64,000 nt of DNA from Eubacteriales bacterium. Lineage in GTDB: Bacteria > Bacillota > Clostridia > Oscillospirales > CAG-272. The DNA lies in NCBI GenBank assembly GCA_045605175.1, contig JAZUPL010000013.1, positions 95 to 64,094 on the forward strand, in the 5' to 3' direction. How positions within the stretch are numbered: position 1 is the stretch's first letter; every line of letters starts with the position of its first letter. A model generated the notes under the pieces. The model saw only the letters and a list, made by a program, of their open reading frames with translations. It was not told the DNA's origin and searched no databases. The translations under genes were made by a program, and so were the position numbers. Shown here piece after piece: positions 7,277 to 21,877 of this stretch.

Positions 7277-7346
7277 AACAGATGCCCAAGCCAAGCATCC
7301 ACTGTATAGATAACAGATGCCCAAGCCAAGCATCCACCGTATAGAA
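7277..7346. repeat. 2 x 35-bp tandem direct repeat
   Basis: aacagatgcccaagccaagcatccac[t/c]gtataga occurs twice back to back (2 mismatches). Each unit contains a GATGC-n9-GCATC hairpin. Confidence 0.8.
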
Positions 7347-7349
7347 AAA

Positions 7350-7377: not shown

Positions 7378-7434
7378 GATTTAGTTTTAACAGTCAAAAC
7401 AAGCACAGGGGGGCTTCTTTTTTCGACACACCCA

Positions 7435-8688
7435 TTAACTGAACTTTTCAACAATCTTCGCAAAGCAACCTGTATAGGCGTACGCACTGGTGCTTGAGGG
7501 ATTGGCGTGCAACCTTATTGTAGTCAATGAACGGCAGTTTTCAAAGGCGTACGCCCCGATATATTTTACACTTTTCGGCATATCAATATTCTTTATGCTA
7601 ATACAACCTGAAAAGGCTTTGTAGCCTATTTTTTGTACGCCCTCTGCGAGGGTTATATTTTTTAGTCCAAAGCACATCTCAAACAGTGAATCTGCAAGTT
7701 CTTCCACACTCCCGGGTATCGAAATCTCTTTCAAAGAAGTACATGAACAAAAGGCTTTTTTGCCGAGTTTATTTAAGGCTTTTGGCAGACTCACGGTCTT
7801 TATAATTGTTCCAAAGAATGCCGACTCCCCAATTTCTTTAAGTGTGGGTGGCAAAACAACCTCTTTTAAACCCGAACGGCTGAAAACACCCGTAGGCAAG
7901 GTTACAACCCCTGACGGAATATCCACCGATAGAAGTTTTTTGCACTCGGCAAAGGCATATTCGCCAAGTGTGACAAGCCCTCTGGGGATTTTTATTTCCG
8001 AGAGCTTTGTGCAAGAATAAAAAGCCATATCTCCAATTTCAAGCAAGCTATCAGGCAGTTCAACCTTTACAAGATTCCCTGAATTGCTAAAGGCGTTTCT
8101 GCCTATTTTTTCAAGGCCCTCGGGAAGTTTTATGGTCTTTATACCAGGTTTTTTTGAAAATACCCATTCGCCTATTTCCTTTACCCCAACAGGCACCGAA
8201 ACCGTGTCTTCCCTGCCAAGATATTGGGTAAGCACTCCGTCTGTGACACGAAACTCAGGAGGTATTGTCACAGGAACAGGTGTTGACTTCTCTTGTGTTA
8301 CCTCTGTCGTAAACAGGTCAGCCACAAAACCGCCGTCAATTAGTTTCTTCGCTTTGTCAACCGTCCTCGCTCCATCGTCCAAAATTACCAAGAAAAGCGC
8401 CACCGCCATTCGAGCAAAGCCGTCCGCCATCAAAGCGCGCGTGGTGAGGATATAGATGGCGTTATTAACCCTAAGATTTTCGCTCTGTGTCTGGTCTGAC
8501 AGGCTAAGAAGAAGTCCATACCTTGCACCAAAGGTGAGCATATTCCGTACTGCCTCGTATCTGTCGCCAGGGATAATATCGGTTGCAACTGCGCAGAGCT
8601 TTTTCACATTAGCCGATGTTACCCGACCACCGAGTTCGCCTCTTAAATATCCGCCGAGTTTTAGCCCCGCTTCGATAATATTATCCAT
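7435..8688 (-). CDS. cytosolic LRR protein, paralog 6 (conserved N-domain + BspA/LRR_5-type repeats)
   Basis: 417 aa. N-terminus MDNIIEAGLKLGGYL...LCAVATDIIPGDRYE is shared with five neighbours. C-terminal repeats of the type IP.SV..IG..AF..C..L..I. No signal peptide. Confidence 0.85.
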   Translation of the reverse strand: MDNIIEAGLKLGGYLRGELGGRVTSANVKKLCAVATDIIPGDRYEAVRNMLTFGARYGLLLSLSDQTQSENLRVNNAIYILTTRALMADGFARMAVALFLVILDDGARTVDKAKKLIDGGFVADLFTTEVTQEKSTPVPVTIPPEFRVTDGVLTQYLGREDTVSVPVGVKEIGEWVFSKKPGIKTIKLPEGLEKIGRNAFSNSGNLVKVELPDSLLEIGDMAFYSCTKLSEIKIPRGLVTLGEYAFAECKKLLSVDIPSGVVTLPTGVFSRSGLKEVVLPPTLKEIGESAFFGTIIKTVSLPKALNKLGKKAFCSCTSLKEISIPGSVEELADSLFEMCFGLKNITLAEGVQKIGYKAFSGCISIKNIDMPKSVKYIGAYAFENCRSLTTIRLHANPSSTSAYAYTGCFAKIVEKFS

Positions 8689-8811
8689 AATGCATCCTTT
8701 TGTTTACATTTTCTGTTTTAGTGCTACCCCGTGTCAATTTTCTTGGCGAGGTGATACACACTTTTTGTTTTTCTTATAAGGAAAAGTCCGTCTTGGACCA
8801 TCCAAGCCTGG

Positions 8812-10302
8812 CTATATCTTCTTGACAGGTCGTCTATTAGGGTTCCACTTAGTGCCAAAAATCTCCCAAGGCTTAAGACCACCCTCTTTGTATATGGTGA
8901 GCTTTGGACAGGAAGCAAAGGCATCCTTACCAATCTTCTCTACACTCTTTGGTATAGTGACCTTTTCGAGCTCAGGGCAAAACTTAAACGCCTCGTCACC
9001 TATGAATGTGGTACCTGCAGGAATTTCCATCTCCTTTAGTTTATCACAAGAACGGAAGGCGCTATATGCAATAGTTTTTATGCCACTCGGAAGAGTTACC
9101 GTGGTAAGGCTTTTGCAACCACAGAATGTTTGGCAATCTATCTCATCAACATCTTGTGGGATAGTTATGCTTTGAAGCTCGTAACAGTTTTCAAACGCAT
9201 AACGTCCTATTTTTTTTATTCCCGTTGGAATGTCAAAGGTCTTAAGACTTTCACAGTTACGAAACATATAATAACCAATCTGATAATTATCCTTTTCGGG
9301 TGTGAATGTAATAGTTTCGATATTTTTACAGCCATCAAATGCACCGGCGAGCATATAGCCACCCGTTACGGTGACGTGCTTTAGAGATTCTGGCACATAA
9401 TACGTACTGAACGAGCCATAATAGTGCTGAGTTATGCACATAGCATCATCGAATTTGCTTGTGCCAAAGATAAAGCCGAGAGGCTTTTGGTAATTCTCGT
9501 GGCTTCTCTTCATCTCAGCCCCCACAAATGGCAGAGTGATGCTCTCAAGCGAGGAGCAACCAGCAAAGGCTCCGCTAGCTATACTCTTCACATTTTTAGG
9601 AACTACTACGCTCTTCAAAAATCTGCAATCCTGGAACGCCTTGCCTGCTATCGCCTTAACGTTACTCGGCACAACCACGTGGGCGTCTCTGCCCCTGTAT
9701 GCTTTAAGCACCCCGTCAACTATGTAGAAGTCGGAGGGGTTGTTTGGTTTTTGGGGCTGGGTGGATACTTGTGGTTGGGTGGATTGCTGAGGCATTCCCT
9801 TTTGCGCCTCGGGGGTTGAGGTTGTGACTTGGGGTGTTAAATTTTGAGGTTGGGCGAATTGCTCTTTAGGGGTGGTTTGGTTTTGTGTCTGCTGTTTTGG
9901 TGGCACAGGGGTAACTGTATCAGAGTTTTGCCCCTCGGTTTGTTCTTCAAGCAATGTATTAGCAAATTCCTCCGCCTCCGCCGAGCCCTCGCAAATTATC
10001 ATAACCAATGCCGCCGCATAACGGGCAAAACCTTTCGCAAGCATTGCCCTATCGACAAGGGTATGCACTATCTCTTTGGCTCTCGTTTCTCTATCAAAAC
10101 TACTCTCACTGTAATTTTCTAAGAGGTGATACTTTTGGCACAGCGTAAGGAGTCCCCTCGCCTGCTCGTATCTCTCGCCGGGAAGAACGTCGGTTGCCAC
10201 CGCACAAAGCCGCTTAGCATTTGCTAAGGTAACTCACCCGTCGAGTTCTTCTCTTAAATATTTGCCAAGTTTTTGCCCGGCTTCAATAATTATGTCTTTC
10301 AT
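8812..10302 (-). pseudogene. LRR paralog 5, interrupted by in-frame TGA at 10234..10236
   Basis: ATG at 10302 gives MKDIIIEAGQKLGKYLREELDG*VTLANAKRLCAVATDVLPGERYE. The stop aligns with Arg (CGA) of paralog 6. The ORF track only reports the downstream part, 8812..10200. Confidence 0.8.
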
Positions 10303-10357
10303 ATCTCACCATAAGTACATTTTTTATAACTAAAAAGCAATACACCTATAACCCCTA

Positions 10358-11749
10358 TTACTTCAACTTCTTTACAGGTCGTTTGTCGGGGTTCCAGGGT
10401 AGAGTACGGAACATATCGCCAAAACTCAGCCCTCCCGCTTTGTATATCGTAAGGTTCGGACAGTTCGCGAAAGCATTATCACCAATTTCAGTGACGCTTG
10501 TGGGAATCTTGACCTCACGAAGTGCTTCACAACCAATAAACGCGGCTCTCTTTATTACAGTAGCCCCCTCGGGTACTTCAACCTTCTCAAGCGAGATGCA
10601 ACCTTCAAAGGCTTCCCTGCCAATCTCTTTCACCGCCCTAGGCAAAACAGCCTTGCTTAACAATTTGCAATTTGTAAAACTGTTATTTTCTATTATCTCA
10701 ACTCCGTCGGGGAGAATCAGGGACTCAAGGCTTTCACATGCATAAAACGCGCCCTGCCCAATCTCCAAAAGCCCTTTTGGAAATACAATATTTTTTAAAT
10801 TAGGACAATCTGCAAAGGCGTGGGAACCAATTTTCTTTACCCTATCTGATATAACCACTTTCTCAAGACACGAACATTTTCTAAAAACCCCTGCCCTAAG
10901 TTCGCAGACAAGCGCCGGAATGACAACACTTTTTAGGCTATTGCAACCCGAAAAAGCATATTGCTCTATTCTTTCCACATACGGTGGTATCGTCACACTT
11001 TCAAGTCCAGAGCAATCAGCGAACAAATACTGACTTATTACGGTAATTTTGTTAGGAAGAACTACGCTTTTCAAAGCATAGCACCTAGAAAAGGCAAAGC
11101 CCACCACCGTGTCAAGGCTATCCGGCAGAGCAACACTCTCCAAAGCCGAGCAACCGCAAAATGCCATAGACTCAATTCGTTTGACCCCCTCCGGCAGGAG
11201 AATACTTTTGACACTTGAACACCAGGAAAACGCACTATCACCTATAACGCTTACCCCATCGGGAACAATCACGTGGGAGTCGCTTCCCTTGTATTTAACA
11301 AGTCTGCCGTTTTCAATTTGGAAGTCCTGGGGATTGTTTTTAGTAGTGGGGCGTGTCGCGTTTTGCGTAGGTTTTATAGGTTCTTTTTTCTCTGCATCCG
11401 TCAGGAATTTCTCCACCTTGCCAATGCACTCGTCCGAGGGGTCTATGGCTATCATAAACACAGCCAAGGTCCGCCTTGCATTCTCCTCGGTGAACAATTC
11501 CTGCTCGGTAAGAGTGAAGATTTGCGCCTTAAGGTTGTTGTCCTCTGTTCCATTTTCGACAAGCCCCGCATAGACGTGCGACTCAAGTCCTCGACGCATC
11601 ATCTTCTTTATTCTGTCGTATTTGTGTCCGCCGAGGGTGTCAGAAATTATCCCCCAAAGTGCCTGGGGATTTACCTTAACCATTCGCGAAGCGTCAACAT
11701 CCCGAAATGCCTCGGCAAGCAGTTTGCCCGCCTCAATTATATCCTTCAT
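10358..11749 (-). CDS. cytosolic LRR protein, paralog 4
   Basis: Start at ATG 11749 (MKDIIEAG...) aligns with the paralog N-termini and has GGAG upstream; the ORF-track start 11761 is also possible. About 12 LRR_5-type repeats. The C-terminus WNPDKRPVKK is shared with paralog 5. Confidence 0.85.
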   Translation of the reverse strand: MKDIIEAGKLLAEAFRDVDASRMVKVNPQALWGIISDTLGGHKYDRIKKMMRRGLESHVYAGLVENGTEDNNLKAQIFTLTEQELFTEENARRTLAVFMIAIDPSDECIGKVEKFLTDAEKKEPIKPTQNATRPTTKNNPQDFQIENGRLVKYKGSDSHVIVPDGVSVIGDSAFSWCSSVKSILLPEGVKRIESMAFCGCSALESVALPDSLDTVVGFAFSRCYALKSVVLPNKITVISQYLFADCSGLESVTIPPYVERIEQYAFSGCNSLKSVVIPALVCELRAGVFRKCSCLEKVVISDRVKKIGSHAFADCPNLKNIVFPKGLLEIGQGAFYACESLESLILPDGVEIIENNSFTNCKLLSKAVLPRAVKEIGREAFEGCISLEKVEVPEGATVIKRAAFIGCEALREVKIPTSVTEIGDNAFANCPNLTIYKAGGLSFGDMFRTLPWNPDKRPVKKLK

Positions 11750-11904
11750 AATGTACTCCATTGATTACCTTGTTTATACTAAGTGGTAAGACGTGTTAAA
11801 TTAAATCCGTGTAAAGTCCGACACAGGTAAGCACCTCGCCGTATAAGTCGATAGAGAAGGCTATGATTTCTTGCCGACTTTGGATAAGGGAGAGTAAGAT
11901 TATA

Positions 11905-12957
11905 TTAAACCTTAAATGCCGGGCAAGCGAAGAATACGTCCTTGCCCATAGTAATGCCATCGTGTATCAAAACATCGGTAAGTTTGCTGCAATTACTAAA
12001 TGCCTGGTCATCAATACGGGTTACACTTTTTGGAATTTGAATATTCGTAAGACTTTCGCAGGACGCAAAAGCAACTTGACCTATGTATTTTACGCTGTCT
12101 GGTATTATAACCTTAGTAAGTCCTCGGCACTCTGCAAATGTACCATATTCAATACTAGTTATACTATTAGGAATAGTGATGCTCTTAATGCCCACGCACT
12201 TGCAAAAAGCAACTGACCCTATGTATTCTACGCTATCGGGAATTATGAAACTTTCAAGACCGGAACAACCCCAAAAAGCAAAGTTTTCAATCCTCTTTAC
12301 ACTTTTAGGGATGCTTATACTCGTCAGCCTTGAACAATCATAAAAGGCTCTTGCTCCAATGGTCGTAACACCATTAGGAATAACCACATAATCACCCTCG
12401 CCCTTGTATTTAATCAACACACCGTCAGAAATATCAAAGTCAGCGGGGTTGCTTTGCTTAAGTGTGCTTTGGGGCTGCGAGTTGTTAGCCTTTGGCTCGG
12501 TGGGTATTTGTGTAGGTTGAGTTTGTACGGGAACGGGTGTAGGCTGGGTTTGAAGAGGCTGGGGATTTGCGGTTGGTTGTGTAGGCTCTGTGCCACTAGG
12601 CGAGAGGATAGCCATAGCGTGTTTCTCTCCCTCCTCCTTGCCGTCACAAATCATAACTACCAACGCTGTAGCACAAAGAGCAAAGTTCTTAGCCAGCATA
12701 GCATCGTTATGAATAATATGTAAAACAGACTATGCACGAGCCGTCCAGTCAAGGTTGCCCTCTGTATATTTCTTGAAAGCGTGATATCTCTCACAAAGTG
12801 CGAGCAAACTCCTTACCTGACCGTACTTCTCGCCGGGGAGGAGGTCGGTCGCCACCGAGCAAAGTCTATGTATGTTCGCTTCGGTTAGGTTTGCGCTAAG
12901 TTGGGTTGCAAAATAATCTCTAAGTATTCTTCCCGCACTAACAATAGTTTCTTTCAT
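11905..12957 (-). pseudogene. LRR paralog 3, interrupted by in-frame TAG at 12730..12732
   Basis: ORFs 12730..12957 and 11905..12699 are in the same frame. The joined reading ...LDWTARA*SVLHIIHNDAMLAKNFA... aligns with paralog 5 ...RETRAKEIVHTLVDRAMLAKGFA... (stop opposite Lys). Confidence 0.8.
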
Positions 12958-13009
12958 AATAGTGCTCTTTCTATATATGTTTTATATATTTCTCTATACC
13001 CGTGTTAAA

Positions 13010-14395
13010 TTATTGATAGACTACGCTTTTAACGCCCTCGTCCCACATATCCTCAAGTCTTGCACCCTTGGATACAAGTACGGACACTCGGGCATTGTCA
13101 CATCCGTCAAAAGCAAATGCCTCAACGGTCACCGAGGAGGAGTTTATTTCGATGTTTTTTATACCCTCGCAATCACAAAAAGCATAGGAATGAACACGGC
13201 TTGCTCCGTCGGTTATGACAACCTTTTCAAGCGAGGTGCAATCGGTGTAGGCGTAGGAACAAACCTCGGGCAATCTGCCCCCTATATATATCGACCCCCT
13301 CAATGCTGTACAGTCGGCAAAGGCATACTCTCGCACCACCCTCAAGGTGCTTGGTAGCGAAACAACCGAGAGTTTTGGACAATCCGAAAAGGCATAGGCA
13401 GATATCTCCCTGACGCCCTCGGGTATATTTATTCTTCCTATATATTTATTAGAGGCAAAGGCATACGGGCCTATCGAGGTCACACCCTTGGGAATTGTGG
13501 GAAATGCCTCTGTGCCGTTGTACTTTACGAGGACACCTCCGCGTATGTCGTACAACGCCCCCGTCGTGCTGGGGCCACCGCTTGTGACGGTGACATTACC
13601 GCCGTTTCCTGTAACGGTGATGTTGCCACCGACGGTTACTGTGGTGTTATTATTGCTTGTGTTTACAGAAATATTTCCACCGCCACCCGACACGGTTACG
13701 CCGTTTATGGTTATATTGCCACCGCCACCGGTTATGGAAACGACGCCGTTATTAGTGGTGACGATTCTTGTATTGTTGTTTACGGTAGTGTTTGTTGTAA
13801 CCGTGACATTGTTGTTTTTCTGTATCGGTCTTGGTGTGGGGGTGTTTTGAATTCTCTGTACAATTGTAGGTTGTACAGGGGGTGTGGGGATATTTCTCAC
13901 CCTCTGTGGAATGGTAGGCTGAGGCGTTGGAGTTGGCTGTGGAGTTATAGGTCTTGGGGTAGGTTGAGGAATTATAGGTTGGGGCTGGGGTGTAGGTATA
14001 GGCGTTGTAGGTTGCTGATTGGGTTGTGGAGGCACGCCGTCAACAAATTTTTCTATTTTCCCTACTTCGTCGTCAGAGGGGTGTATAACCACCAAAAGCA
14101 GAGCAATCACCCTCTTTGCAAAACCCTCTGCAATCATCTCCCTGTTGATTAGCCTGTCCAAAGCAGATGCTACACGAATATTCATAGGCTCATCGCTAAG
14201 TACAATGCTCTCATATACCCCGCTTCGCGCGCCGAGGGACATCATTTTTCTGACCATTTCATACCCGTCACCGGGAAGCAGGTCTGTTGCCACGCTCGCA
14301 AGCAGGCGAAGTTCCTTTCTGCCGATTTTCGCTATTCCCTCTGCCTTTATATAATCGGATAGTTTTCGTCCTGCTGTCACTATTTCTCTTTCCAT
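13010..14395 (-). CDS. cytosolic LRR protein, paralog 2 (long Pro-rich plus N/G/T/V-repeat linker)
   Basis: 461 aa. Conserved N-domain, PQPTP-type linker, GGNITV-type repeats, then LRR_5-type repeats. Confidence 0.85.
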   Translation of the reverse strand: MEREIVTAGRKLSDYIKAEGIAKIGRKELRLLASVATDLLPGDGYEMVRKMMSLGARSGVYESIVLSDEPMNIRVASALDRLINREMIAEGFAKRVIALLLVVIHPSDDEVGKIEKFVDGVPPQPNQQPTTPIPTPQPQPIIPQPTPRPITPQPTPTPQPTIPQRVRNIPTPPVQPTIVQRIQNTPTPRPIQKNNNVTVTTNTTVNNNTRIVTTNNGVVSITGGGGNITINGVTVSGGGGNISVNTSNNNTTVTVGGNITVTGNGGNVTVTSGGPSTTGALYDIRGGVLVKYNGTEAFPTIPKGVTSIGPYAFASNKYIGRINIPEGVREISAYAFSDCPKLSVVSLPSTLRVVREYAFADCTALRGSIYIGGRLPEVCSYAYTDCTSLEKVVITDGASRVHSYAFCDCEGIKNIEINSSSVTVEAFAFDGCDNARVSVLVSKGARLEDMWDEGVKSVVYQ

Positions 14396-14466
14396 TTTTT
14401 CTCCAAACCGTCTTTTTATTTAGCAAAAGCACAACATAGTATCTACATTGTGCTTTCCTTATTATA

Positions 14467-15426
14467 TTAATAGTATCTTACTCCGTTTACGCCTTTTAGC
14501 GCGTTGTTGCGCACTATGGCTTTGTCGGGAATTTTCATATTTGTTATATTTGTGCATCCAAAGAATGCGTAGGTGCCTATCTCCTCAACGCTGTTGGGTA
14601 TGGATACGACGGTAAGTCCTGTGCAACCACGGAAAGCCGAAGCGCCTATGGTTTTCAGTCCCGCAGGGAAACTCACCGAAGTCACCGCTGTGCAATCCTG
14701 AAATGCGAATTTGCCGATATTCTTTATAGCCAGCGGAATATGAACATCTCCGCCCCTGCCAAGATATTTTACCAGGGTGTCGCCATCTATCTCAAAGTCG
14801 GACATAGGGGTGGTGGCGTTATGAACACCGCCTGAAAAAGGCGTTATGCCACTATCAGAGGTTGAGGTATCCGTCCCTGTCGAGCCGGGGCGAAGTCCGC
14901 CAAACCTGCCACCAAGGCGCACACCCGAGGTGCTGCTCACCGTACCGCCACCCGATGTAGTATGGCTACCCGTAGAGCCGGGACGAAGTCCGCCAAATCT
15001 GCCTCCTCCCTGTGGTGCGGGAGTTTCTGCCGTAGGGCGAGGTGCAGGAGTTGGCTCGGGGGCAGTGCCAACGAAACTTTCGGTGACATAGCGAATATTT
15101 TTCTCCGAGGTGTCAAGGGCGATAAGCAGTGCGGCGATAGCCTTTTTTGCATATTCTTCGCTCAAAAGTTCGCGAGTGGTAAGCACGGATATTCCGTCAA
15201 TAATAGCAAGACTACGCTCTGCCTCACCCGAGGCAACTATTTTACCGTAAACACCGCTGTCAAGTCCCTTTTTTATGAGTTTTTTCGCAACCTCGTACTT
15301 GGGATTTGTAACAAGGTCCAGAAGAATGCCGTAAAAGGCGGCGGGGCTGTGCTCCAAAAGACGCAAGCCGTCGTGTTCTTCTATTATCTTCGCCATAAAA
15401 AGGCCTGTTTCCTTAATGGTTTCCAT
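14467..15426 (-). CDS. cytosolic LRR protein, paralog 1 (short LRR region)
   Basis: 319 aa. Divergent copy of the N-domain, a linker with two GGRFGGLRPGSTG repeats, and about 4 LRR_5-type repeats. Confidence 0.85.
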   Translation of the reverse strand: METIKETGLFMAKIIEEHDGLRLLEHSPAAFYGILLDLVTNPKYEVAKKLIKKGLDSGVYGKIVASGEAERSLAIIDGISVLTTRELLSEEYAKKAIAALLIALDTSEKNIRYVTESFVGTAPEPTPAPRPTAETPAPQGGGRFGGLRPGSTGSHTTSGGGTVSSTSGVRLGGRFGGLRPGSTGTDTSTSDSGITPFSGGVHNATTPMSDFEIDGDTLVKYLGRGGDVHIPLAIKNIGKFAFQDCTAVTSVSFPAGLKTIGASAFRGCTGLTVVSIPNSVEEIGTYAFFGCTNITNMKIPDKAIVRNNALKGVNGVRYY

Positions 15427-15465
15427 CTATCCTCCATAGGGCGAACCCCAAATATTTCTTGATTA

Positions 15466-16623
15466 TTAGTGGAACAACTCGTGGAAAAACTCGGTAACTC
15501 CGCCAAGCACGTCGGCAAAGGTGGTTTTCTTTTTGTTGTTTTCTTTAGGCGGGTTGAAGGCAGGAAGATTTGAGCCGTCAAAAACGCCCTTTCCGTCTCC
15601 GAGAGTACGGTTGCCCTTTCCTGTGCGTCTGAGTTCAACATACACATTATGCGTAACGGGAGAAATCCTCATAGATGCAGGGCAACCCGCAATAGCAACC
15701 CCCGACTCTATCTGTCGCAGAATACGGTCGCCGTCAAGTTGTTCGTTTGCAAACTTAAAGGTAATAAAGTCGTCGCCCGCCTTGATACGGTCTCTGATAT
15801 AGCCCGCAATTTCGCCGACGGTCTTTACGTAAAGTTTGTGTTTATAATAATAATTATGAGCCAAAGCCTTGCAAGCGGGGTGGAATCTCCTATCCCATGC
15901 GTGCGAGAGGCCCATAAGTTTGTCGTCAATGTTAAAGTAATCGTAGTTTATAGAAACGTCACCCTTGTTTTTTAAGTCCCAAGTGACGTCCACATGATAA
16001 TAATCTCCGTCAAGAACAACCACATTCCACGCGTGAGGATCTTGTTGTTCAGTGCTACCCGCAGGGCAGCCGAAGATTACGTAAGACTTTATCCCACACC
16101 AATCGCACATAAGTTTGAATGCGCAGGATATACCCCAGCACACCGCAGTTCTTTTCAGCAATGCGCCAAGAATGTTAAACGCCTCGTTCACCGTCTTGGT
16201 AGGGTTTGATACAGCATTATTATCATACACCACCGTGGTTACAAGGTAATCGTGAATCGCTTTCTCTTTATCATAATCGGTCATAGAAGCGGTTATGTAT
16301 TTCTTTGAGAAGGCTTCAAGCCCATCCTTTATTCTCTTTTCGTACATTTCCTTTTCCGCCTCGGTATAGAGGTACTTGGGAATATAGAAAAAACCACCCT
16401 TGCAAGGTGCGTAAGAGAACATCGAGGGGGCGACATAGAAGAAGGACGGCACGTCATTATATACGTACTGCGCAATAAGTCCTATTCGCTCTATGCTTAT
16501 ATTTCCGCTTTTTAACCTTATCTGCCTTTCAAACTTTTCAAAGCCAAAATAAAGTTGTTTATATACTTCCTTTTCCTCATCGGGAAGAGCAAAATAGTAA
16601 AATTTCGAGTATTTCAGAATCAT
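15466..16623 (-). CDS. transglutaminase-like cysteine protease superfamily protein
   Basis: 385 aa. Core RTAVCWGISCAF...GIKSYVIFG...DPHAWNVVV...YYHVDVTWD matches the Cys-His-Asp transglutaminase-like fold pattern. No signal peptide. Confidence 0.8.
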   Translation of the reverse strand: MILKYSKFYYFALPDEEKEVYKQLYFGFEKFERQIRLKSGNISIERIGLIAQYVYNDVPSFFYVAPSMFSYAPCKGGFFYIPKYLYTEAEKEMYEKRIKDGLEAFSKKYITASMTDYDKEKAIHDYLVTTVVYDNNAVSNPTKTVNEAFNILGALLKRTAVCWGISCAFKLMCDWCGIKSYVIFGCPAGSTEQQDPHAWNVVVLDGDYYHVDVTWDLKNKGDVSINYDYFNIDDKLMGLSHAWDRRFHPACKALAHNYYYKHKLYVKTVGEIAGYIRDRIKAGDDFITFKFANEQLDGDRILRQIESGVAIAGCPASMRISPVTHNVYVELRRTGKGNRTLGDGKGVFDGSNLPAFNPPKENNKKKTTFADVLGGVTEFFHELFH

Positions 16624-16747
16624 CTTTACACCTTCGTTTTCTCACAGGCACTAAAAATCTGCTGCGCACCATAGAACGGCTAAACCCGACCGACACGGAC
16701 AAAAAGCCGCGCCGATCGGGACACAAACCTTGCCGAAGGTAAAAATT

Positions 16748-18670
16748 TTACACCTTAGGGAAGGTCTTAGGGCCGTTATCCTGTTGGGGCTTTTGGCCAC
16801 CAAGAGGAGTATTGTTGGACTGAGTTTCTCTGTTGTTAGCCTCTTGCTTTTTCTCGGTGGTGGGCGTTGTGGGTTGAATGGTAGGTCTTAAAACCACGGT
16901 TTCGGTAGTCATCTCGATAACCGAATCGCTGTTTTCACGTCTTACACACTCATAAGTGTATTCTTCTACAATACCCTCGGGCTCAACCGATATTTTAGGC
17001 TCGTCAACCGCTTCTACGGTGGGGGTTTCCACAGTTTCGGGGGCAGGCTCGGTTGCCTCCACTTCGGGAACAGCGACCTCCTCAGGCTCGGTAGCCGTAA
17101 CGGGAATCTCGGTAACATTGTCGGTAACGGGGATTTCTCCATCAGGTACTACGGGAGTTTCGGTAGCAGGCTCGGTGGTTTCGGGAGCGGGCTCTGCGGT
17201 CTGCTCTTCAGGTGCGCCACCAACAGACACTATAGGAATATCAAAGGCGTTCTTAGGCTCTGTGCCGTTTTCGGGATTTGTACCACCGCGCAGGTTGAAA
17301 ATGCCACCAAGAAGTTTTTCAAGGGGATTTTCACGCTTGCCGATACCATTTTTCTTCTCGTAGTCGGCAATCTTAGCACGAAGAGCATCAAGTTCCTTCT
17401 TCTTCGCTTCAAAAATCTCCACGTTGCTCTTCTTAAGTGCTTCCACCTGAACACCACGGGATTTTATCTGCTCTGCCTGAATTTTAATCTGCTCACGCTG
17501 TTTCTTAATGCTTTCGATGCGCGCCTCAAGTTCCTTGATTCTACGAGTGCACTCCTCGATTTCGGCATTTGCACGCTTGAACTCCTCACCCTTCTCGTTA
17601 AACCTGCGTCTTGCATCGGCAACCTGTGCCTCTGCCTGTGCTATGGTTGTGGTGAGTGCCTTACAAGCGTTTTCAAGTTCCTCGGCTTTTGCCTTTGCAC
17701 GCTTGTAGTTGTTGTCCGACTGCTTGCGTGTTGCTATTTCATAAAGGCTCGCCGCGATAACGTCAAGGTCACGGGTGTCGTAAATTACACCCATAGAGGT
17801 GTCGTCACCCTTCCAGTTGTTTGCTATGTTGGTGAGAATTGCCTTTTCAATGTTCTCCTCTGCCCAGGTCTCGCCCTTGGAGAAAGAGCCACCAACATTG
17901 TAGTAAACACCCTGTCTTGTAGCCTCGTCAAGAAGGCTGTCGTCAATACCATCAGAGTGAACCAATATAATTTTGGGGATGTTGAAGGATGCGTAGTGTC
18001 TGAAGCCCTCGATAACGTTTGCCTGACACATAGAAGTAGTAGCCTCTCCCTCTCCTACGAAGGGGTCGCGAGGCATATCCTCTATAAAGGATTGCAAGGG
18101 CTGAACACCGTTATGCTCCTCGGCATATACTGCAACGCAGTTTCCGTCACCGACCTGGATAGCATACCAGAACTTCTCGGTAACTACCGACGCGATAAGA
18201 GTCGTGCCGTATGCCCAGTAGTAGATACCCTGGTTTTTAAGTCTGTCAACATACTTCTTCTGCACGTTTGCAAGGTCTGCCTCGGTAAAGGGGTTTGCCT
18301 TAAAGTGCTGATCTACACTCGCTCTCCAACTTGCTACAATAACATTCTTGATATTGTCGAAAATGCTATCAGCTACGGGGTTTTGACCGTTGTCCTTGCC
18401 GTAAGCGGTAATCTGTCTTGCAAGTTCAGCGGGAGTCATCTTGTCAAGAATCTGGTTAGTTGCCTTGATAAGCACCGCCTTTGCCACTTCAACGGCATAA
18501 TGCGAGCCTACGTCAGAACGGAAATAGTCTGCACTTCCGTGACCGTCGGCAACAATGGCGATAGTCATACGCTCGTCAGAGTAACTGCCGGAGTGGTCCT
18601 GGCATACCTTACCCTCTTTGACGTGAGAACCGCCTATAATACACTTGTCAAAGGTCTTGAAATTGACCAT
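16748..18670 (-). CDS. PP2C-family protein phosphatase fused to coiled coil and P/E/T-rich tail
   Basis: 640 aa. N-terminal CQDHSG...IAIVADGHGS...VGDGN...HSDGIDD (PP2C-like metal-binding Asp pattern). Residues ~320-440 are heptad-rich (coiled coil). The C-terminus is low complexity. Confidence 0.85.
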   Translation of the reverse strand: MVNFKTFDKCIIGGSHVKEGKVCQDHSGSYSDERMTIAIVADGHGSADYFRSDVGSHYAVEVAKAVLIKATNQILDKMTPAELARQITAYGKDNGQNPVADSIFDNIKNVIVASWRASVDQHFKANPFTEADLANVQKKYVDRLKNQGIYYWAYGTTLIASVVTEKFWYAIQVGDGNCVAVYAEEHNGVQPLQSFIEDMPRDPFVGEGEATTSMCQANVIEGFRHYASFNIPKIILVHSDGIDDSLLDEATRQGVYYNVGGSFSKGETWAEENIEKAILTNIANNWKGDDTSMGVIYDTRDLDVIAASLYEIATRKQSDNNYKRAKAKAEELENACKALTTTIAQAEAQVADARRRFNEKGEEFKRANAEIEECTRRIKELEARIESIKKQREQIKIQAEQIKSRGVQVEALKKSNVEIFEAKKKELDALRAKIADYEKKNGIGKRENPLEKLLGGIFNLRGGTNPENGTEPKNAFDIPIVSVGGAPEEQTAEPAPETTEPATETPVVPDGEIPVTDNVTEIPVTATEPEEVAVPEVEATEPAPETVETPTVEAVDEPKISVEPEGIVEEYTYECVRRENSDSVIEMTTETVVLRPTIQPTTPTTEKKQEANNRETQSNNTPLGGQKPQQDNGPKTFPKV

Positions 18671-18808
18671 TGTAAGTCCTCCTAATTATTCTGCACCCTG
18701 GGGGTGCTCTATATGGTTTTATCTCTTTTTAGATAGTCGCAAATCTTTTATAACCCCAAAAGGTCCAAAAGGAATAGCGACCTCGCGAATTGTTAGTCGA
18801 AAGAAATA

Positions 18809-19618
18809 TTATTCCCAACCGCCGAAGAGAGCCTCTGCGTCGTCGTCGTCAATCTTACCCTCAACCTGGAGTGTCTCAACAACAGACTCAACGGTGCCGG
18901 CAGTATCGGAAGCGGTCTTCTCGAATTCCTCATCTCTACGCTTCTGGCTTGCCATATCGTCCTCAGAACCTGCGCCAACTGCGTGAGTAGCGGTGGTAGA
19001 TGCAACGACTGCTACGTTTGCAAGAATAGTAGAAAGAATAGCGATGTTATCAACGTTAAGTACGGTCTCGGGGTTACCTGTGAACTTCTTGAGGCAGGAG
19101 CGGTCTGCGTCCTCACCGATAGCGAAGCCGATACGAGTACCCTTTACGAACCAGTTGTTGCCCTTAAGAACCTTGATACCTGCGTCAACGTCGTCGGTGG
19201 GAACACCGTCGGTAAGAAGGATAAGAACGGCTCTCTTGTAGCCTGCGCACTGGCCCTTCTGAATAAGCTGAGAACGAGAAAGCATAGTTTCAAGTTCTTT
19301 GAAAGCGGCACCCATGTTGGTAAGACCGCCAAGACGGAAGTCGGGGTTTGCACTGGAAGGATCCTGAACCTTGCACTCCCAACGAGGTGCGGTATCGAAG
19401 CAAAGAACCGAGAGTTTAACCTCTGCGTCGTCATTGCTCATGTTAAGTCTTGCAAGCTCAACCTTGATGTTCTCAACAGCGGTCTTAACCTGCTCGATCT
19501 TCTCACCGCTCATACTTCCCGAGGTATCAACGATAAGGAACAGGGGCATAACGTGCTTCTGCACGCCACTGGCACCAAGGTCGTTGTCATCCTCAAAACC
19601 AAAGAAATTGTTATCCAT
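18809..19618 (-). CDS. von Willebrand factor A (TerY-like) protein with acidic tail
   Basis: 269 aa. MIDAS motif DTSGSMSG at the start of the domain, then LLTDGVPTD. The C-terminal ~60 aa are acidic. Confidence 0.9.
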   Translation of the reverse strand: MDNNFFGFEDDNDLGASGVQKHVMPLFLIVDTSGSMSGEKIEQVKTAVENIKVELARLNMSNDDAEVKLSVLCFDTAPRWECKVQDPSSANPDFRLGGLTNMGAAFKELETMLSRSQLIQKGQCAGYKRAVLILLTDGVPTDDVDAGIKVLKGNNWFVKGTRIGFAIGEDADRSCLKKFTGNPETVLNVDNIAILSTILANVAVVASTTATHAVGAGSEDDMASQKRRDEEFEKTASDTAGTVESVVETLQVEGKIDDDDAEALFGGWE

Positions 19619-19750
19619 TTTTTGTTTCCTCCATAATATAAAATTTATTATTTGTTTTTTTATTTATTCCTGTTTTATCAAATACTGTGGAGGCTTACCC
19701 CGAAAAAATCCTCGGGAGTATGCTCTCCAAAAAGCACGCAACTATCAGGC

Positions 19751-21139
19751 TTACTTAATAATTTCACCAATGATTGCGCCAATGGCTATCTTCATACCCA
19801 TCTTGAACTCGGCAACCTGACCGTAGGATACGTCCTTTCTCGTTCCGTCAGGATAGGTTACAACCCAGGGAGTATCCTTCATCATATTGCCAAAGCCGTA
19901 CATCTTCTTTGCAGTGTTGACCATAAACTTGAATGCAGGAACGTCGAATTCCTTGCAGGTACGGTCGAACTGGCACTTGAAGACCACGGTGCCGGGCACG
20001 ATGGGGATAATTGTTCCGGGGAACTTAATCTTACAAGGAACGGTAAGGGTAGCCTTACACTTAGGACACTGAACCGCGCCCTGGGTGCTAAGGAATACGG
20101 GAGCCTCCTTACACTTGGGGCAGTCAACCATCTCGCCACGAAGACGAACTATTGTATCGATAAGCAAAGCCTCAACGGGACGGGACGCGGGGTTGGTAAG
20201 TCCCTGCTTGCCGAAGAAGGCAAGGAACATCTTGTGTATGTACTCAGGATATTGAGGCCACATTACAAGCACGTTTTTGTGCTTCTCTTTTACGGGTGCG
20301 TTTCTGTTATCGGTGGGATCAAAGAGGAATACGGGATCCTTACCGTAAACCGTCTTCTCATCGTTGTTCTCGGAATAAACGCCCTCCAAAGGGTGCTGGC
20401 CCGCCATCATAATACGGAAGAGTATGATAGCAAGCGAGAAACGGTCGGTCATCTTATCGGGAGCGTGTCCCATAACGACCTCAGGAGCCATGTATCTGTC
20501 CTTACCACCAACGCCAAGGTTCATTCCGTTGGGTGTGATGTTATCGTTATCGGCGATAAGCACCTCGCCTGTATCAGCCTTGATAAAGATGTTACCATTG
20601 TTAAGGTCCTGGTAACTAAGTCCACGTACATGGAGTTTCTCAAACGCCTGAATAATATTCAAGCAAGCGGTGAGCATTGCGCTTCTGTCCTTGAATCTTG
20701 CCTTGAACAGGAAGTAGTCTGTAAGCTCGATATATGTACCCATATCGATGAAGTCCATAATATATCCGTAGGAGTCCTGCGAGCCGGAGTGCCAAACGGT
20801 TACGTCCTGTGGCCAAACAAAATGCTTGGTAGGGGGTGCATTCTTCGAGTTAGCACAGAGGTTGTTGTAGAACGCCTCTGCCGCACTGATAGTGGTATCT
20901 CCTTTCTCGTCGGGCTCGGTCATCTTCTTGACTTCACCGTTAGCATTACAGCGTATCTGCTTTTTCCTTAAACCCCCAAGGTACGTGCTCTTGTACCACT
21001 TAAGAACTCTTGGTGCCCCGCCGTAATCTACGCCGTAGACAAGGCCCTGTCCTCCCTTGGCACTGATCAACTTGGTAATCTTGATTGTGACGCCCTTCTT
21101 GGAAACTATGGAATCACCAACCTTAAGAACCTTTCCCAT
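19751..21139 (-). CDS. divergent Ser/Thr protein kinase with C-terminal zinc ribbon
   Basis: 462 aa. Gly-loop-like KGGQGLVYGV, VLKWYK, catalytic loop YQDLNNGNIF, IADNDN, YMAPEVV, then CPKC-x17-CPKC. Confidence 0.88.
   Translation of the reverse strand: MGKVLKVGDSIVSKKGVTIKITKLISAKGGQGLVYGVDYGGAPRVLKWYKSTYLGGLRKKQIRCNANGEVKKMTEPDEKGDTTISAAEAFYNNLCANSKNAPPTKHFVWPQDVTVWHSGSQDSYGYIMDFIDMGTYIELTDYFLFKARFKDRSAMLTACLNIIQAFEKLHVRGLSYQDLNNGNIFIKADTGEVLIADNDNITPNGMNLGVGGKDRYMAPEVVMGHAPDKMTDRFSLAIILFRIMMAGQHPLEGVYSENNDEKTVYGKDPVFLFDPTDNRNAPVKEKHKNVLVMWPQYPEYIHKMFLAFFGKQGLTNPASRPVEALLIDTIVRLRGEMVDCPKCKEAPVFLSTQGAVQCPKCKATLTVPCKIKFPGTIIPIVPGTVVFKCQFDRTCKEFDVPAFKFMVNTAKKMYGFGNMMKDTPWVVTYPDGTRKDVSYGQVAEFKMGMKIAIGAIIGEIIK
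20114..20190. repeat. left copy of 77-bp inverted repeat (native kinase coding sequence, codons ~317-342)
   Basis: The reverse complement matches 21953..22029 at 76 of 77 positions by manual alignment. Confidence 0.9.
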
Positions 21140-21877
21140 TTTCTTGTCCTCTCTTAAAAGTATTTTTTATTTCTTATTCGCAAAATTCAAGATATTTTTG
21201 AAGAATAAAAGGCTAAATATTTAGTATATTAAACATCTTACAAAAATATTTAATTATATTATAGCAAATAAAGATGATAATTGTCAATAGTAAAATGTAT
21301 ATTAAATTAACAAAGATATAAAACCGCAAATAATCCAAAATAAAAATTTCATCGAAATGTAAATAATTGTTGTCTTTATACACCTTTTTGTCATTATTTT
21401 TATGCATAAATATCCAATTCTGACTGTATTTTCCTTATTATACTCAGTCTGTGTTTTCCCGCCTCGTTTTTTGAAAATCCTCTCCCCTTACGCTCTTTTC
21501 TTATAGCCAGTGCCACCCCGTGTTAAGTTTAAGTCTTTTTCTTCATCTTAAACCATAGGTTTCTTTAACGCCATATATAACTCCCCTCTATCGCAGATAA
21601 AAAAGGCAAACGCAAAGACAAAATCCTGCACGTCCGCCATTTTTTATTAAATTATCATATACTTAATTTACTTTGATATATTGATTTATTGTTTTATATA
21701 TGTTACAATTTTGTTAAAAGTGATATAAAAAAAGGTGCAACGAAAAGAACGGTAGAAACATTGTAAACACCACGGCGTTACACGCTATGCACTTATGAAC
21801 CACTACCACCACATATGTATAAAACCAGCCCTTAACACAATAGTTTATTTATAAATATTATATAAAAGAGGTAAAAT

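What the first reader, a model, noticed from the sequence alone, without database searches (positions are those of the whole stretch)
7435..21139. Candidate undescribed system: kinase-vWA-PP2C triad, transglutaminase-like protein and six tandem cytosolic LRR paralogs
Ten consecutive minus-strand genes with short spacers start from a 740-bp AT-rich upstream region. In order they are: a divergent Ser/Thr kinase with a zinc ribbon, a TerY-like vWA protein with intact MIDAS (DTSGSMSG), and a PP2C phosphatase fused to a ~120-aa coiled coil and a P/E/T-rich tail. Next comes a transglutaminase-like Cys-His-Asp protein. Then come six paralogs, each built as a shared ~110-aa N-domain, a hypervariable low-complexity linker and BspA/LRR_5 repeats, all without signal peptides. 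The first three genes match the kinase/vWA/PP2C 'TerY-P triad' noted in comparative genomics of Ter-associated genes (Anantharaman, Iyer and Aravind 2012), which is still functionally uncharacterised as far as I know. I do not recognise its coupling to a transglutaminase-like enzyme and an expanded, partly pseudogenised array of intracellular LRR proteins as a described system. LRR ligand-recognition modules, rapid paralog diversification and decay, and a reversible phosphorylation switch with a vWA assembly module all resemble immune or conflict-type sensing systems. Alternatively it could be a phospho-regulated scaffold.
Basis: partly seen in the sequence, partly recalled or inferred. Interest (0 to 1): 0.85.

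Follow-up and report, generated by a model that had tools for sequence, protein, structure and literature searches.

The report
TerY-P kinase switch with cytosolic LRR array
A gut Clostridia bacterium carries a ten-gene operon joining a known but mechanistically unsolved kinase/phosphatase/vWA switch (TerY-P triad) to a cytoplasmic transglutaminase-like enzyme and six leucine-rich-repeat proteins that share a very rare, previously undescribed N-terminal domain; the combination recurs in related genomes, so it is probably one conflict or defence-type system.

Summary
Ten minus-strand genes (7435-21139) follow a perfect sigma-70 promoter. They encode a kinase with a Zn-ribbon, a MIDAS vWA protein, a PP2C with a coiled coil, a Cys-His-Asp transglutaminase-fold protein, and six paralogs built as N-domain, Thr/Pro/Gln-rich linker and BspA-type LRR. 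Two paralogs carry a single nonsense codon.

The first three genes are the published TerY-P triad. It is listed as an anti-phage system, so it is not wholly uncharacterised.

Three things appear to be new:
- **TGase branch.** The TGase is a signal-less branch of the TglA family (PDB 9CRN). 0 of 17 triad-linked copies have an N-terminal signal, against 56% of 96 stand-alone copies.
- **N-domain.** It is a confident seven-helix fold with no PDB, viral or Pfam match. It occurs in only 28 of 1.84 billion representative proteins, always N-terminal, fused to LRR, Sel1, TPR or RCC1 repeats.
- **Linkage.** N-domain and signal-less LRR genes sit inside or beside such triads in 12 of 22 triad loci examined. 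Some of these loci are ICE-like, prophage-adjacent or next to a resolvase.

My best reading (about 0.45) is a conflict or defence system. The repeat proteins would act as interchangeable recognition subunits, the triad as the switch and the TGase as the output. Function is inferred, not shown. I rate it a new variant of a known kind.

The parts
21258..21287 (-). Sigma-70-type promoter (TTGACA, 18-nt spacer with TG extension, TATAAT), about 120 nt upstream of the kinase start
   Evidence: the only 12/12 match in 7000-22500. It lies in the AT-rich spacer 21140-21887 (GC 0.338 in the 21001-22000 window).
19751..21139 (-). Ser/Thr kinase (462 aa) with a C-terminal CxxC...CxxC Zn-ribbon and a ~100-aa beta-rich domain; the TerY-P-type kinase
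   Evidence: Pkinase 2e-12. The motifs VLKWYK, YQDLNNGN, ADNDN and MAPE are conserved across 9 orthologues. Zn-ribbon models hit weakly at ~1e-3. The family has 2065 hits, some named HhH/kinase (COG4248/YegI-like).
18809..19618 (-). Stand-alone vWA protein (269 aa) with a MIDAS motif (DTSGS) and an acidic C-terminal tail ending LFGGWE
   Evidence: VWA 1e-12. DxSxS is kept in 8 of 9 orthologues. Tails end in acidic residues plus F/W in most loci.
16748..18670 (-). PP2C phosphatase (640 aa) with a ~130-aa coiled coil and a P/E/T-rich tail
   Evidence: PP2C_2 4e-22 plus coiled-coil families over residues 310-450. Tail composition. Orthologues are present in all triad loci.
15466..16623 (-). Cytoplasmic TglA-like transglutaminase-fold Cys-His-Asp protein (385 aa) with a disordered tail and a terminal amphipathic helix
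   Evidence: Transglut_core 1.5e-11. C162, H197 and D212 are invariant. AF2 pLDDT is 83.7. Whole-chain match to S. pyogenes TglA 9CRN: E 2.7e-17, TM 0.66/0.70. No N-terminal signal.
14467..15426 (-). Paralog L1: N-domain, 98-aa G/T/S/P linker with GGRFGGLRPGSTG repeats, then a short LRR_5 array
   Evidence: Orthologues in L001 and L002 keep the N-domain (79-89% identity) and the LRR region (83-94%), while the linker does not align.
13010..14395 (-). Paralog L2: N-domain, 169-aa P/T/Q/N linker (10 N-x-S/T sequons, GGGNIT-type repeats), then LRR_5
11905..12957 (-). Paralog L3: N-domain interrupted by one TAG codon (12730-12732), linker, LRR_5; a recent pseudogene or a truncated product
   Evidence: Intact orthologues P0126 and P0127 have Lys at this codon.
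10358..11761 (-). Paralog L4: N-domain, 34-aa linker, about 11 LRR_5 units
   Evidence: LRR_5 4e-118..
8812..10302 (-). Paralog L5: N-domain interrupted by one TGA codon (10234-10236), Q-rich linker, LRR_5
   Evidence: Intact orthologue P0123 has Arg at this codon.
7435..8688 (-). Paralog L6: N-domain, 33-aa linker, about 10 LRR_5 units; last gene of the cluster
   Evidence: LRR_5 3.6e-73..
7277..7303 (-). Terminator-like hairpin (12-bp stem plus T-run) after L6. It lies within a 35-nt tandem duplication (7277-7346) and is convergent with the pyrB terminator.

Best explanation
The locus is one operon that encodes an expanded TerY-P-type conflict (probably anti-phage or anti-mobile-element) system of gut Clostridia.

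**Core.** The core is the known triad: an active Ser/Thr kinase with a Zn-ribbon and beta-domain, a MIDAS vWA protein, and a PP2C phosphatase. I read this as a reversible phospho-switch.

**Added modules.**
1. A cytoplasmic, signal-less branch of the TglA transglutaminase-fold Cys-His-Asp enzymes. I propose this is the output enzyme, acting by cross-linking, deamidation or cleavage of a bound target or host protein.
2. A set of paralogous proteins in which a compact, invariant seven-helix N-domain is tethered to variable repeat arrays by a Thr/Pro/Gln-rich disordered linker. The arrays are LRR_5 here and Sel1, TPR or RCC1 in relatives.

**Proposed mechanism.** The repeat arrays are interchangeable recognition subunits for foreign proteins. 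The N-domain docks them onto the shared core, either on the vWA MIDAS face or on the kinase C-terminal domain. The Thr-rich linkers are the kinase/PP2C substrates that set the on/off state.

**Shown.** Gene content, intact catalytic motifs, absence of export signals, conserved gene linkage, rarity and orphan fold of the N-domain, paralog turnover.

**Inferred.** Docking, substrates, enzymatic output and the defence role.
For: - **Triad identity.**, matched to published descriptions.
- **TGase-triad linkage.** Seen in the window and L001, L002, L003, L008, L009, L010, L020, L021, L028, L031, L033, L034, L041, L068 and L101, across 31-97% identity.
- **Signal loss.** 0 of 17 triad-linked TGases have an N-terminal hydrophobic signal, against 54 of 96 stand-alone ones. 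The streptococcal TglA homologue is a lone lipoprotein.
- **N-domain.** Only 28 proteins in 1.84e9 representatives, always N-terminal. C-terminal parts are LRR_5 13/28, Sel1 3/28, TPR and others, and RCC1 or PT in L020. AF2 pLDDT is 92.9 with no PDB or viral fold match.
- **N-domain position.** N-domain genes lie directly after triads in L014 and L018, next to the TGase in L006 and L016, and in L001, L002, L003, L009 and L020.
- **More LRR partners.** Signal-less Zn-ribbon/LRR_5 proteins sit inside the module in L028, L033 and L041, with an LRR gene next to the kinase in L034; L031 holds a homologue of these proteins whose LRR content was not confirmed.
- **Mobile or conflict context.** Integrase plus ClpP plus TraG/VirD4-like in L003 and L020. 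Resolvase in L018. Prophage structural genes 4 kb away in L101. A plasmid-borne triad with a different cassette in L019. Vsr and NOV_C flanks in L010.
- **Turnover.** Two fresh nonsense mutations, hypervariable linkers and copy-number differences between relatives.
- **Transcription.** One strong promoter and short spacers are consistent with co-transcription.
Against: - No experiment bears on function.
- In the window the cluster is flanked by housekeeping genes (the pyr operon and a glycyl-radical microcompartment locus). There is no integrase or known defence gene nearby.
- PADLOC gives only generic kinase hits. That library also fails on a canonical TerY-C triad, so the result is uninformative.
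- LRR_5 and TglA-type proteins are normally extracytoplasmic. Some relatives carry EssC-like/WXG100-like or TraG-like ATPases, which could point to export instead.
- One N-domain-LRR gene (L007) stands alone.
- Most triads and most TGase-family members occur without each other.
- The N-domain was not detected on any core protein, so the docking partner is unknown.
Confidence: 0.45

Rival explanations
1. Non-classical export or surface display. The LRR_5 proteins and the TglA-like enzyme are cargo of an FtsK/VirD4-family ATPase-driven route (EssC-like plus WXG100-like, or TraG-like). The triad regulates export post-translationally, as PpkA/PppA/Fha1 do for the Pseudomonas H1-T6SS. The TGase would then act on the envelope or on other cells.
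For: - Both families are typically extracellular. The streptococcal TglA homologue is a lipoprotein. 56% of solo TGases carry signals. LRR_5 matches adhesin models such as HupY/LrrG.
- A coiled-coil EssC-like ATPase with two WXG100-like proteins adjoins the module in L002 and L003; an FtsK-family ATPase with small proteins of undetermined family adjoins it in L008; L065 has an FtsK-family hit.
- TraG/VirD4-like ATPases occur in L003, L014 and L020.
- The literature links WXG100/FtsK cassettes with TerY-P.
Against: - The window has no such ATPase or WXG gene near the cluster; only the flanking ORFs were scanned, and the FtsK-family HMM found no match in the whole window.
- The EssC-like proteins described in the literature lack TM segments.
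- The N-domain is a compact bundle of seven short helices. It is not a WXG100/LXG long hairpin and has no fold match.
- Most triad-TGase loci lack any FtsK- or TraG-family gene.
Confidence: 0.2
2. Housekeeping phospho-regulated assembly, for example a spore-coat or other intracellular scaffold. Signal-less repeat proteins would be made in the cytoplasm, cross-linked by the TGase (as B. subtilis Tgl does for coat proteins) and controlled by kinase and phosphatase.
For: - There are no signals on any protein.
- The linkers are Gln/Lys/Pro-rich and so plausible TGase substrates.
- The host is a Clostridia lineage.
- One triad (L004) sits beside a SipL/LysM gene.
- The PP2C carries a coiled coil.
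Against: - Distribution is patchy and partly on mobile elements.
- Paralogs are decaying and copy number varies.
- The promoter is a perfect vegetative sigma-70/A type, not an obvious sporulation sigma promoter.
- The N-domain is present in only 28 representative clusters, too rare for a conserved developmental machine.
Confidence: 0.1
3. Fortuitous adjacency. A TerY-P triad (with or without the TGase) happens to lie next to an unrelated, locally amplified LRR gene family, with no functional coupling.
For: - LRR_5 genes are very abundant in gut Firmicutes.
- Another, disrupted lipoprotein-type LRR_5 gene lies just upstream on the other strand.
- L007 shows a solo N-domain-LRR gene.
- Internal promoter-like sites exist.
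Against: - N-domain genes adjoin a triad and/or this TGase in 10 of 11 independent N-domain loci (window, L001, L002, L003, L006, L009, L014, L016, L018 and L020, against L007). These loci span very divergent sequences.
- An N-domain-like/LRR_5 branch is embedded between PP2C and TGase in L028 and L033, with homologous genes beside the module in L031 and L041.
- Genes share one strand, with 39-143-nt spacers.
Confidence: 0.07

Closest known systems
TerY-P triad (Anantharaman, Iyer and Aravind 2012; TerY-P-like anti-phage modules of Gao et al. 2020, as summarised in PMC11090510 and PMC4978471)
   Same: Three adjacent genes: a TerY-like MIDAS vWA, a PP2C and a Ser/Thr kinase fused to a C-terminal Zn-ribbon. 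The triad is frequently mobile and is combined with variable downstream cassettes and with coiled-coil EssC-like/WXG100 modules. Relatives L002 and L003 have exactly that extension, and L008 has an FtsK-family ATPase with small proteins of undetermined family.
   Different: The associated cassette here is not a nuclease, McrBC or CoCoNuT module. It is a cytoplasmic TglA-like TGase plus orphan-N-domain repeat proteins. No TerY-C domain gene is present in the window. The Gao-type kinases are described as OB-fused, whereas this one has a Zn-ribbon and an unassigned beta-domain.
E. coli YegI (kinase) / YegK = PphC (PP2C) / YegL (vWA) operon (bioRxiv 10.1101/819920 and 10.1101/303594)
   Same: Same three protein types in one operon. 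Some kinase-family relatives carry the COG4248-type name. Substrates and physiological role are unknown there too.
   Different: [quoted passage not shown] The window kinase has no TM segment and has a Zn-ribbon plus beta-domain. E. coli has no TGase or N-domain partners described.
Streptococcus pyogenes TglA (PDB 9CRN) and related transglutaminase-like lipoproteins or SLH proteins
   Same: Whole-chain fold (TM 0.66-0.70, E 2.7e-17) and profile match (9e-36). Conserved Cys-His-Asp core plus flanking N- and C-terminal subdomains.
   Different: The streptococcal TglA homologue examined (S. ictaluri, L011, 66% identical to 9CRN) is a stand-alone lipoprotein with no triad nearby. The window protein and all 17 triad-linked homologues lack any signal. 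No functional paper for TglA was found.
BspA-type LRR (Pfam LRR_5) surface proteins and adhesins (e.g. HupY/LrrG-type)
   Same: Same repeat type, with strong LRR_5 scores.
   Different: No signal peptide, lipobox or anchor. Instead there is an N-terminal seven-helix cytoplasmic-type domain and a disordered linker. The genes are embedded in a kinase/phosphatase operon.
Effector-associated domains (EADs) and bacterial Death-like adaptors of NTP-dependent conflict systems (Kaur et al. 2020, PMC7159879)
   Same: A small all-alpha domain at a protein terminus, fused to many alternative modules, in lineage-specific paralog sets encoded beside a signalling core. That paper also records the kinase-ZnR-beta-domain, PP2C and vWA trio.
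   Different: EADs occur on both the core and the effector, giving homotypic coupling. This N-domain was found only on the repeat proteins. It has no Pfam EAD/bDLD hit and no Death-fold match. There is no NTPase core in the window.
T6SS threonine-phosphorylation pathway (PpkA with vWA domain, PppA PP2C, Fha1) - from general knowledge
   Same: A kinase, a PP2C and a vWA element act as a post-translational switch for a multiprotein machine.
   Different: There is no T6SS here. FHA similarity of the kinase C-terminal domain was tested and not found.

Membership tests
TerY-P triad | Stand-alone TerY-like vWA protein with an intact MIDAS motif (DxSxS...T...D) | tested here: met
   VWA 1e-12. DTSGS at residues 31-35, conserved in orthologues.
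TerY-P triad | PP2C-family phosphatase encoded adjacently | tested here: met
   PP2C_2 4.4e-22. Adjacent in every triad locus examined.
TerY-P triad | Ser/Thr kinase fused at its C-terminus to a zinc ribbon | tested here: met
   Pkinase 2e-12. CPKC...CPKC with weak Zn-ribbon model hits.
TerY-P triad | Associated TerY-C metal-binding domain protein (present in many but not all triads) | tested here: not met
   No TerY_C hit among the window proteins. It is present in relatives L014 (weak) and L019.
TerY-P anti-phage defence system (Gao 2020 type) | Match to defence-system HMMs or demonstrated phage protection | tested here: inconclusive
   PADLOC gives only generic kinase models. The library also fails on a canonical TerY-C triad. 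Protection cannot be tested computationally.
CoCoNuT type II/III-A (TerY-P-associated McrBC-like systems) | CnuB/McrB GTPase, CnuC/McrC and CnuH helicase/HEPN genes in the operon | tested here: not met
   The operon holds only the ten genes described. Flanks are pyr genes, an LRR pseudogene and a microcompartment locus.
TglA-like transglutaminase-fold proteins | Cys-His-Asp core and whole-chain fold similarity to TglA | tested here: met
   C162, H197 and D212 invariant. Profile E 9.3e-36. Foldseek E 2.7e-17, TM 0.66/0.70.
TglA-like transglutaminase-fold proteins | Lipoprotein or secretion signal (extracytoplasmic location) | tested here: not met
   No N-terminal hydrophobic segment: 0 of 17 triad-linked against 54 of 96 solo.
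BspA-type secreted LRR adhesins | LRR_5 repeats | tested here: met
   LRR_5 E from 9e-20 to 4e-118 in all six paralogs.
BspA-type secreted LRR adhesins | Signal peptide, lipobox or cell-wall anchor | tested here: not met
   All six start with the helical N-domain. No TM-length hydrophobic stretch. By contrast the neighbouring + strand LRR gene has a lipobox.
Type VII secretion substrates (WXG100 / LXG) | N-terminal long helix-turn-helix hairpin and genetic linkage to EssC | tested here: not met
   The N-domain is seven short helices with no WXG100 Pfam hit and no fold match. No FtsK-family gene was detected in the window. Linkage is seen in only 4 of 22 related loci.
Effector-associated (EAD) or Death-like adaptor domains | Same adaptor present on a core component and on effectors; profile match to the EAD or bDLD families | tested here: not met
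   The N-domain HMM hits only the repeat proteins in all loci. No Pfam hit at E<=10 apart from four isolated weak matches to unrelated families. No Death-fold match.

The most novel reading that the evidence does not exclude
This is a bacterial pattern-recognition immune system of a new design. Cytosolic LRR, Sel1, TPR or RCC1 receptors share an orphan seven-helix adaptor domain. They would signal through a Ser/Thr kinase, PP2C and vWA switch, analogous in logic to LRR-receptor/Pelle-IRAK-type signalling in plants and animals. The output would be a transglutaminase-fold effector that covalently modifies or cleaves invader or host proteins. If so, the locus would also reveal what TerY-P triads sense and phosphorylate.
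Probability: 0.3. Interest if true: 0.85.

Novelty: new variant of a known kind. Interest (0 to 1): 0.62.

Why it matters
TerY-P triads are widespread; the kinase family alone gave 2065 hits. They were predicted in 2012 and reported as anti-phage in 2020. Yet what they sense, what they phosphorylate and how they act are all unknown.

This variant supplies concrete candidates for each of those roles in one operon:
- six repeat proteins with Thr-rich linkers, as candidate sensors and substrates;
- a conserved orphan adaptor domain, as a candidate docking module;
- a cytoplasmic TglA-like Cys-His-Asp enzyme, as a candidate output.

It also shows that two protein families normally found on the cell surface (BspA-type LRR and TglA-type TGase) have been re-deployed inside the cell alongside a phospho-switch. 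That makes the long-standing TerY-P question directly testable with pull-downs, phosphoproteomics and phage challenge.

Tried and rejected
- **N-domain, word-indexed search.** It found nothing outside the window. Only the exhaustive HMMER search worked.
- **The search for related loci with the diverse N-domain alignment.** It failed for lack of a conserved stretch.
- **N-domain as a known domain.** Pfam and PDB sequence searches at E<=10 and Foldseek against PDB and viral libraries gave no significant match. WXG100/LXG, Death-like/EAD and TM-anchor readings are rejected. A KD19 of 2.0 in L6 comes from a 10-residue buried helix, not a TM segment.
- **Kinase C-terminal domain as FHA.** The sequence pattern suggested it, but profile searches against PDB and Pfam found nothing. 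Rejected; the domain stays unassigned.
- **PADLOC as a membership test for TerY-P.** It is uninformative, because a canonical TerY-C/kinase/vWA/PP2C plasmid locus also gets no TerY hit.
- **Literature for S. pyogenes TglA (9CRN).** No paper was found.
- **Anantharaman 2012.** The paper is not held in the library, so its content is cited only through later papers.
- **The 83-nt inverted repeat as an inverton or regulatory element.** This is unresolved. It is absent upstream in L001 and closer to the window's own kinase (96%) than to L001's (88%). I treat it as a recent intragenomic patch inside a disrupted lipoprotein gene.
- **TGase homologues in uncultured faecal 'Bacteriophage sp.' records**. 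Unannotated short contigs, not pursued.

Full report
**1. What is in the sequence**

Pfam confirms each assignment:

| Gene | Coordinates | Pfam result |
|---|---|---|
| Kinase | 19751-21139 | Pkinase 2e-12 |
| vWA | 18809-19618 | VWA 1e-12 |
| PP2C | 16748-18670 | PP2C_2 4e-22, coiled-coil families over residues ~310-450 |
| TGase-like | 15466-16623 | Transglut_core 1.5e-11 |
| Six LRR proteins | 7435-15426 | LRR_5, 9e-20 to 4e-118 |

- The kinase keeps its catalytic motifs (VLKWYK, YQDLNNGN, ADNDN, MAPE). It has a CPKC...CPKC zinc ribbon followed by a ~100-aa beta-rich domain, conserved in nine orthologues.
- The vWA has the MIDAS DTSGS motif and an acidic tail ending LFGGWE. Similar acidic/aromatic tails recur in orthologues.
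- The TGase has invariant C162, H197 and D212 across 30 homologues.
- The six LRR proteins share a ~115-aa N-domain, then an unalignable linker of 33-169 aa, then LRR_5 units. The linkers are 15-20% Thr, 11-21% Pro and up to 22% Gln; L2 has 10 N-x-S/T sequons.
- Two paralogs are longer than the listed ORFs. L3 (to 12957) has one TAG codon and L5 (to 10302) has one TGA codon. Intact orthologues have Lys and Arg at those positions, so these are fresh nonsense mutations.
- No protein has a signal peptide or a TM-length hydrophobic segment.
- Spacers are 39-143 nt.
- A perfect extended -10 sigma-70 promoter lies at 21287->21258 in the AT-rich spacer. A 12-bp-stem terminator follows L6.

**2. Host and flanks**

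The nearest genome hit is a Eubacteriales MAG with a 97% identical kinase. The window cluster sits between the pyrimidine operon (carB, pyrF, pyrE, pyrB) and a glycyl-radical-enzyme microcompartment locus. No integrase or known defence gene is nearby.

**3. The triad is known**

- The vWA, PP2C and kinase-Zn-ribbon trio is the TerY-P triad. The CoCoNuT paper describes it with exactly these features, as hypothesised to be a phosphorylation switch, and notes that TerY-P-like modules act as stand-alone anti-phage systems.
- The triad's link to WXG100/FtsK cassettes is documented.
- Kaur et al. 2020 describe the same kinase-ZnR-beta-strand-rich domain with PP2C and a stand-alone vWA.
- E. coli YegI and PphC are biochemically characterised, but their substrates are unknown.
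- PADLOC gave only generic kinase hits. A canonical TerY-C/kinase/vWA/PP2C locus on a Prevotella plasmid is also not recognised, so that negative carries no weight.

**4. The TGase is a conserved fourth component**

- From the kinase side, relatives at 97%, 73% and 56% identity (L001, L002, L003) all have the TGase after the PP2C. A 45% relative (L004) does not.
- From the TGase side, orthologues at 43%, 42% and 31% identity (L008, L009, L010) all sit next to a triad.
- I ran a census of 80 TGase-family loci from species-representative genomes. It found an adjacent triad in eight, complete or cut by a contig end (L020, L021, L028, L031, L033, L034, L041, L068), and a partial triad in L065 and L036. 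The rest stand alone.
- The split is clean. 0 of 17 triad-linked TGases have an N-terminal hydrophobic signal. 54 of 96 stand-alone ones do, many with lipoboxes.
- The AF2 model (pLDDT 83.7) matches S. pyogenes TglA (PDB 9CRN) over the whole chain: E 2.7e-17, TM 0.66/0.70, and profile E 9e-36.
- A streptococcal homologue is a lone lipoprotein with no triad nearby.

The window enzyme is therefore a cytoplasmic, triad-linked branch of a mostly extracytoplasmic family. I found no functional paper for TglA.

**5. The N-domain is a rare orphan domain tied to triads**

- It has no meaningful Pfam or PDB sequence hit.
- AF2 gives a confident compact bundle of seven short helices (pLDDT 92.9). There is no significant match in the PDB (best E about 1) or in viral structures.
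- An exhaustive profile search of 1.84 billion representatives found only 28 proteins. The domain is always at residues ~1-120.
- Their C-terminal parts are LRR_5 (13), Sel1 (3), TPR and others. L020 adds RCC1 and PT-repeat versions.
- Neighbourhoods of distant members:
  - L014: TraG-like ATPase, kinase, vWA, PP2C, N-domain protein, TerY_C.
  - L018: resolvase, kinase, vWA, PP2C, 145-aa protein, two N-domain proteins.
  - L006 and L016: N-domain gene(s) next to the TGase, with the contig cut upstream.
  - L007: a solo gene.
- L003 and L020 share an extended order: triad, TGase, ~275-aa protein, ClpP, TraG/VirD4-like ATPase, N-domain proteins.
- A further branch has a Zn-ribbon, then LRR_5, with no signal. 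In L028 it shows a weakly N-domain-like region. It lies between PP2C and TGase in L028 and L033 and just upstream of the kinase in L041; L031 holds a homologue whose LRR content was not confirmed, and L034 has an LRR gene beside the kinase.
- Overall, 17 of 22 triad loci have the TGase and 12 have an N-domain and/or signal-less LRR gene in the module. Four have an FtsK-family (EssC-like) ATPase and three a TraG/VirD4-like ATPase. These loci were partly selected through TGase and N-domain queries, so the fractions describe this sub-family, not all TerY-P triads.

**6. Mobile and conflict context**

- L003 carries an integrase.
- L018 carries a resolvase.
- L019 is a plasmid.
- L010 is flanked by Vsr and NOV_C genes.
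- L101 is a genuine (pro)phage contig with major head protein, protease, portal, TerL and TerS. It has a transposase-disrupted TGase plus triad about 4 kb away.

**7. Interpretation**

The linkage pattern has three parts: the triad as hub, the TGase and adaptor-repeat proteins attached separately or together, and variable ATPase or ClpP additions. Rapid paralog turnover and partial mobile-element carriage come on top of that. This is the grammar of a modular conflict system.

I commit to that reading at about 0.45. In it the repeat arrays are interchangeable recognition subunits, the N-domain is the docking adaptor, the Thr-rich linkers are kinase/PP2C substrates, and the TGase is the output.

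All mechanistic steps are inference. The docking partner is unknown, because the N-domain was not found on any core protein. That also separates it from the EAD adaptors of Kaur et al..

**8. Rivals**

- **Non-classical export (0.2).** This is suggested by the extracellular pedigree of both families and by the ATPase/WXG cassettes in some relatives. Against it, the window lacks those genes and the N-domain is not WXG/LXG-like.
- **Spore-coat-like or other housekeeping scaffold (0.1).** This fits signal-less, Gln-rich, TGase-linked proteins. It does not fit the rarity, mobility, decay and vegetative-type promoter.
- **Chance adjacency (0.07).** The census contradicts it.

**9. Verdict**

This is a real, conserved, uncharacterised multi-gene system. 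It is a new variant of a known kind: TerY-P. The new parts are the cytoplasmic TglA-like enzyme and an orphan adaptor domain on LRR, Sel1, TPR or RCC1 proteins. I found no prior description in the papers I could search. Its value is that it offers concrete candidate sensors, substrates and an effector for a widespread switch whose mechanism is unknown.

Noticed in passing
window 20114-20196 and 21947-22029: An 83-nt inverted repeat, 96% complementary. One arm encodes kinase residues ~315-342, just before the Zn-ribbon. The other arm is a copy embedded in the upstream + strand gene. Identity stops sharply at both ends. The copy is closer to the window's own kinase (96%) than to the L001 orthologue (88%), and it is absent from the 1.1 kb upstream of the kinase in L001. 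It could be a recent gene-conversion-like patch, the arms of an invertible 1.75-kb segment holding the promoter and the kinase 5' end, or an assembly artefact.
   Followed up: partly
window 21888-24115 (+): A lipoprotein-type BspA/LRR_5 gene (MKKLILLTFCLLATLLLLASCGN, with a lipobox). It is disrupted by two in-frame stops, one inside the kinase-derived patch and one near 22190. The listed ORF 22355-24115 is its 3' remainder. It contrasts with the six signal-less paralogs.
   Followed up: partly
window 7277-7346: A 35-nt tandem duplication (94% identical) between the pyrB stop and the end of L6. It overlaps terminator-like hairpins on both strands.
   Followed up: no
window 6214-7275 (+): The aspartate carbamoyltransferase (PyrB, 353 aa) has a ~50-aa C-terminal extension with CxxxxC...CxxC beyond the Pfam OTCace domains. 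This may be a fused PyrI-like zinc domain.
   Followed up: no
window 25481-32845 (-): A glycyl-radical-enzyme microcompartment locus: EutP/PduV GTPase, radical-SAM activase, PFL-like GRE (847 aa), BMC shell protein, RnfC/Nuo51-like flavoprotein and PduL phosphotransacylase.
   Followed up: no
window 13550-13950 (paralog L2 linker): The L2 linker holds 10 N-x-S/T sequons within GGGNITINGVTVSGGGGNISVN-type repeats. It may form a beta-rich or glycosylatable segment and differs in composition from the other five linkers.
   Followed up: no
window 18809-18830 and orthologues in L002, L008, L009: The vWA proteins end in an acidic stretch followed by an aromatic motif (LFGGWE, LFGNW, RFEGW, FFESWD, EGWD, GWGIWK). 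This may be a conserved C-terminal docking tail.
   Followed up: partly
window 15466-15520 (TGase residues 370-384) and L002 orthologue: After a ~35-aa disordered segment the TGase ends in a predicted amphipathic helix (FADVLGGVTEFFHELFH). It is present only in the closest orthologues. The ~335-aa orthologues lack it.
   Followed up: no
L073, L078, L082, L096, L098: Tandem arrays of 4-7 secreted or lipoprotein TGase-like paralogs in Ruminococcus and Oscillospiraceae MAGs. This is a separate expansion of the same enzyme family, without triads.
   Followed up: no
L028 9281-9970: An AIM24-family protein (1.8e-67) is encoded between the Zn-ribbon/LRR_5 gene and the TGase in one triad module.
   Followed up: no
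window 40001-41000: A second low-GC stretch (0.367) elsewhere in the window.
   Followed up: no
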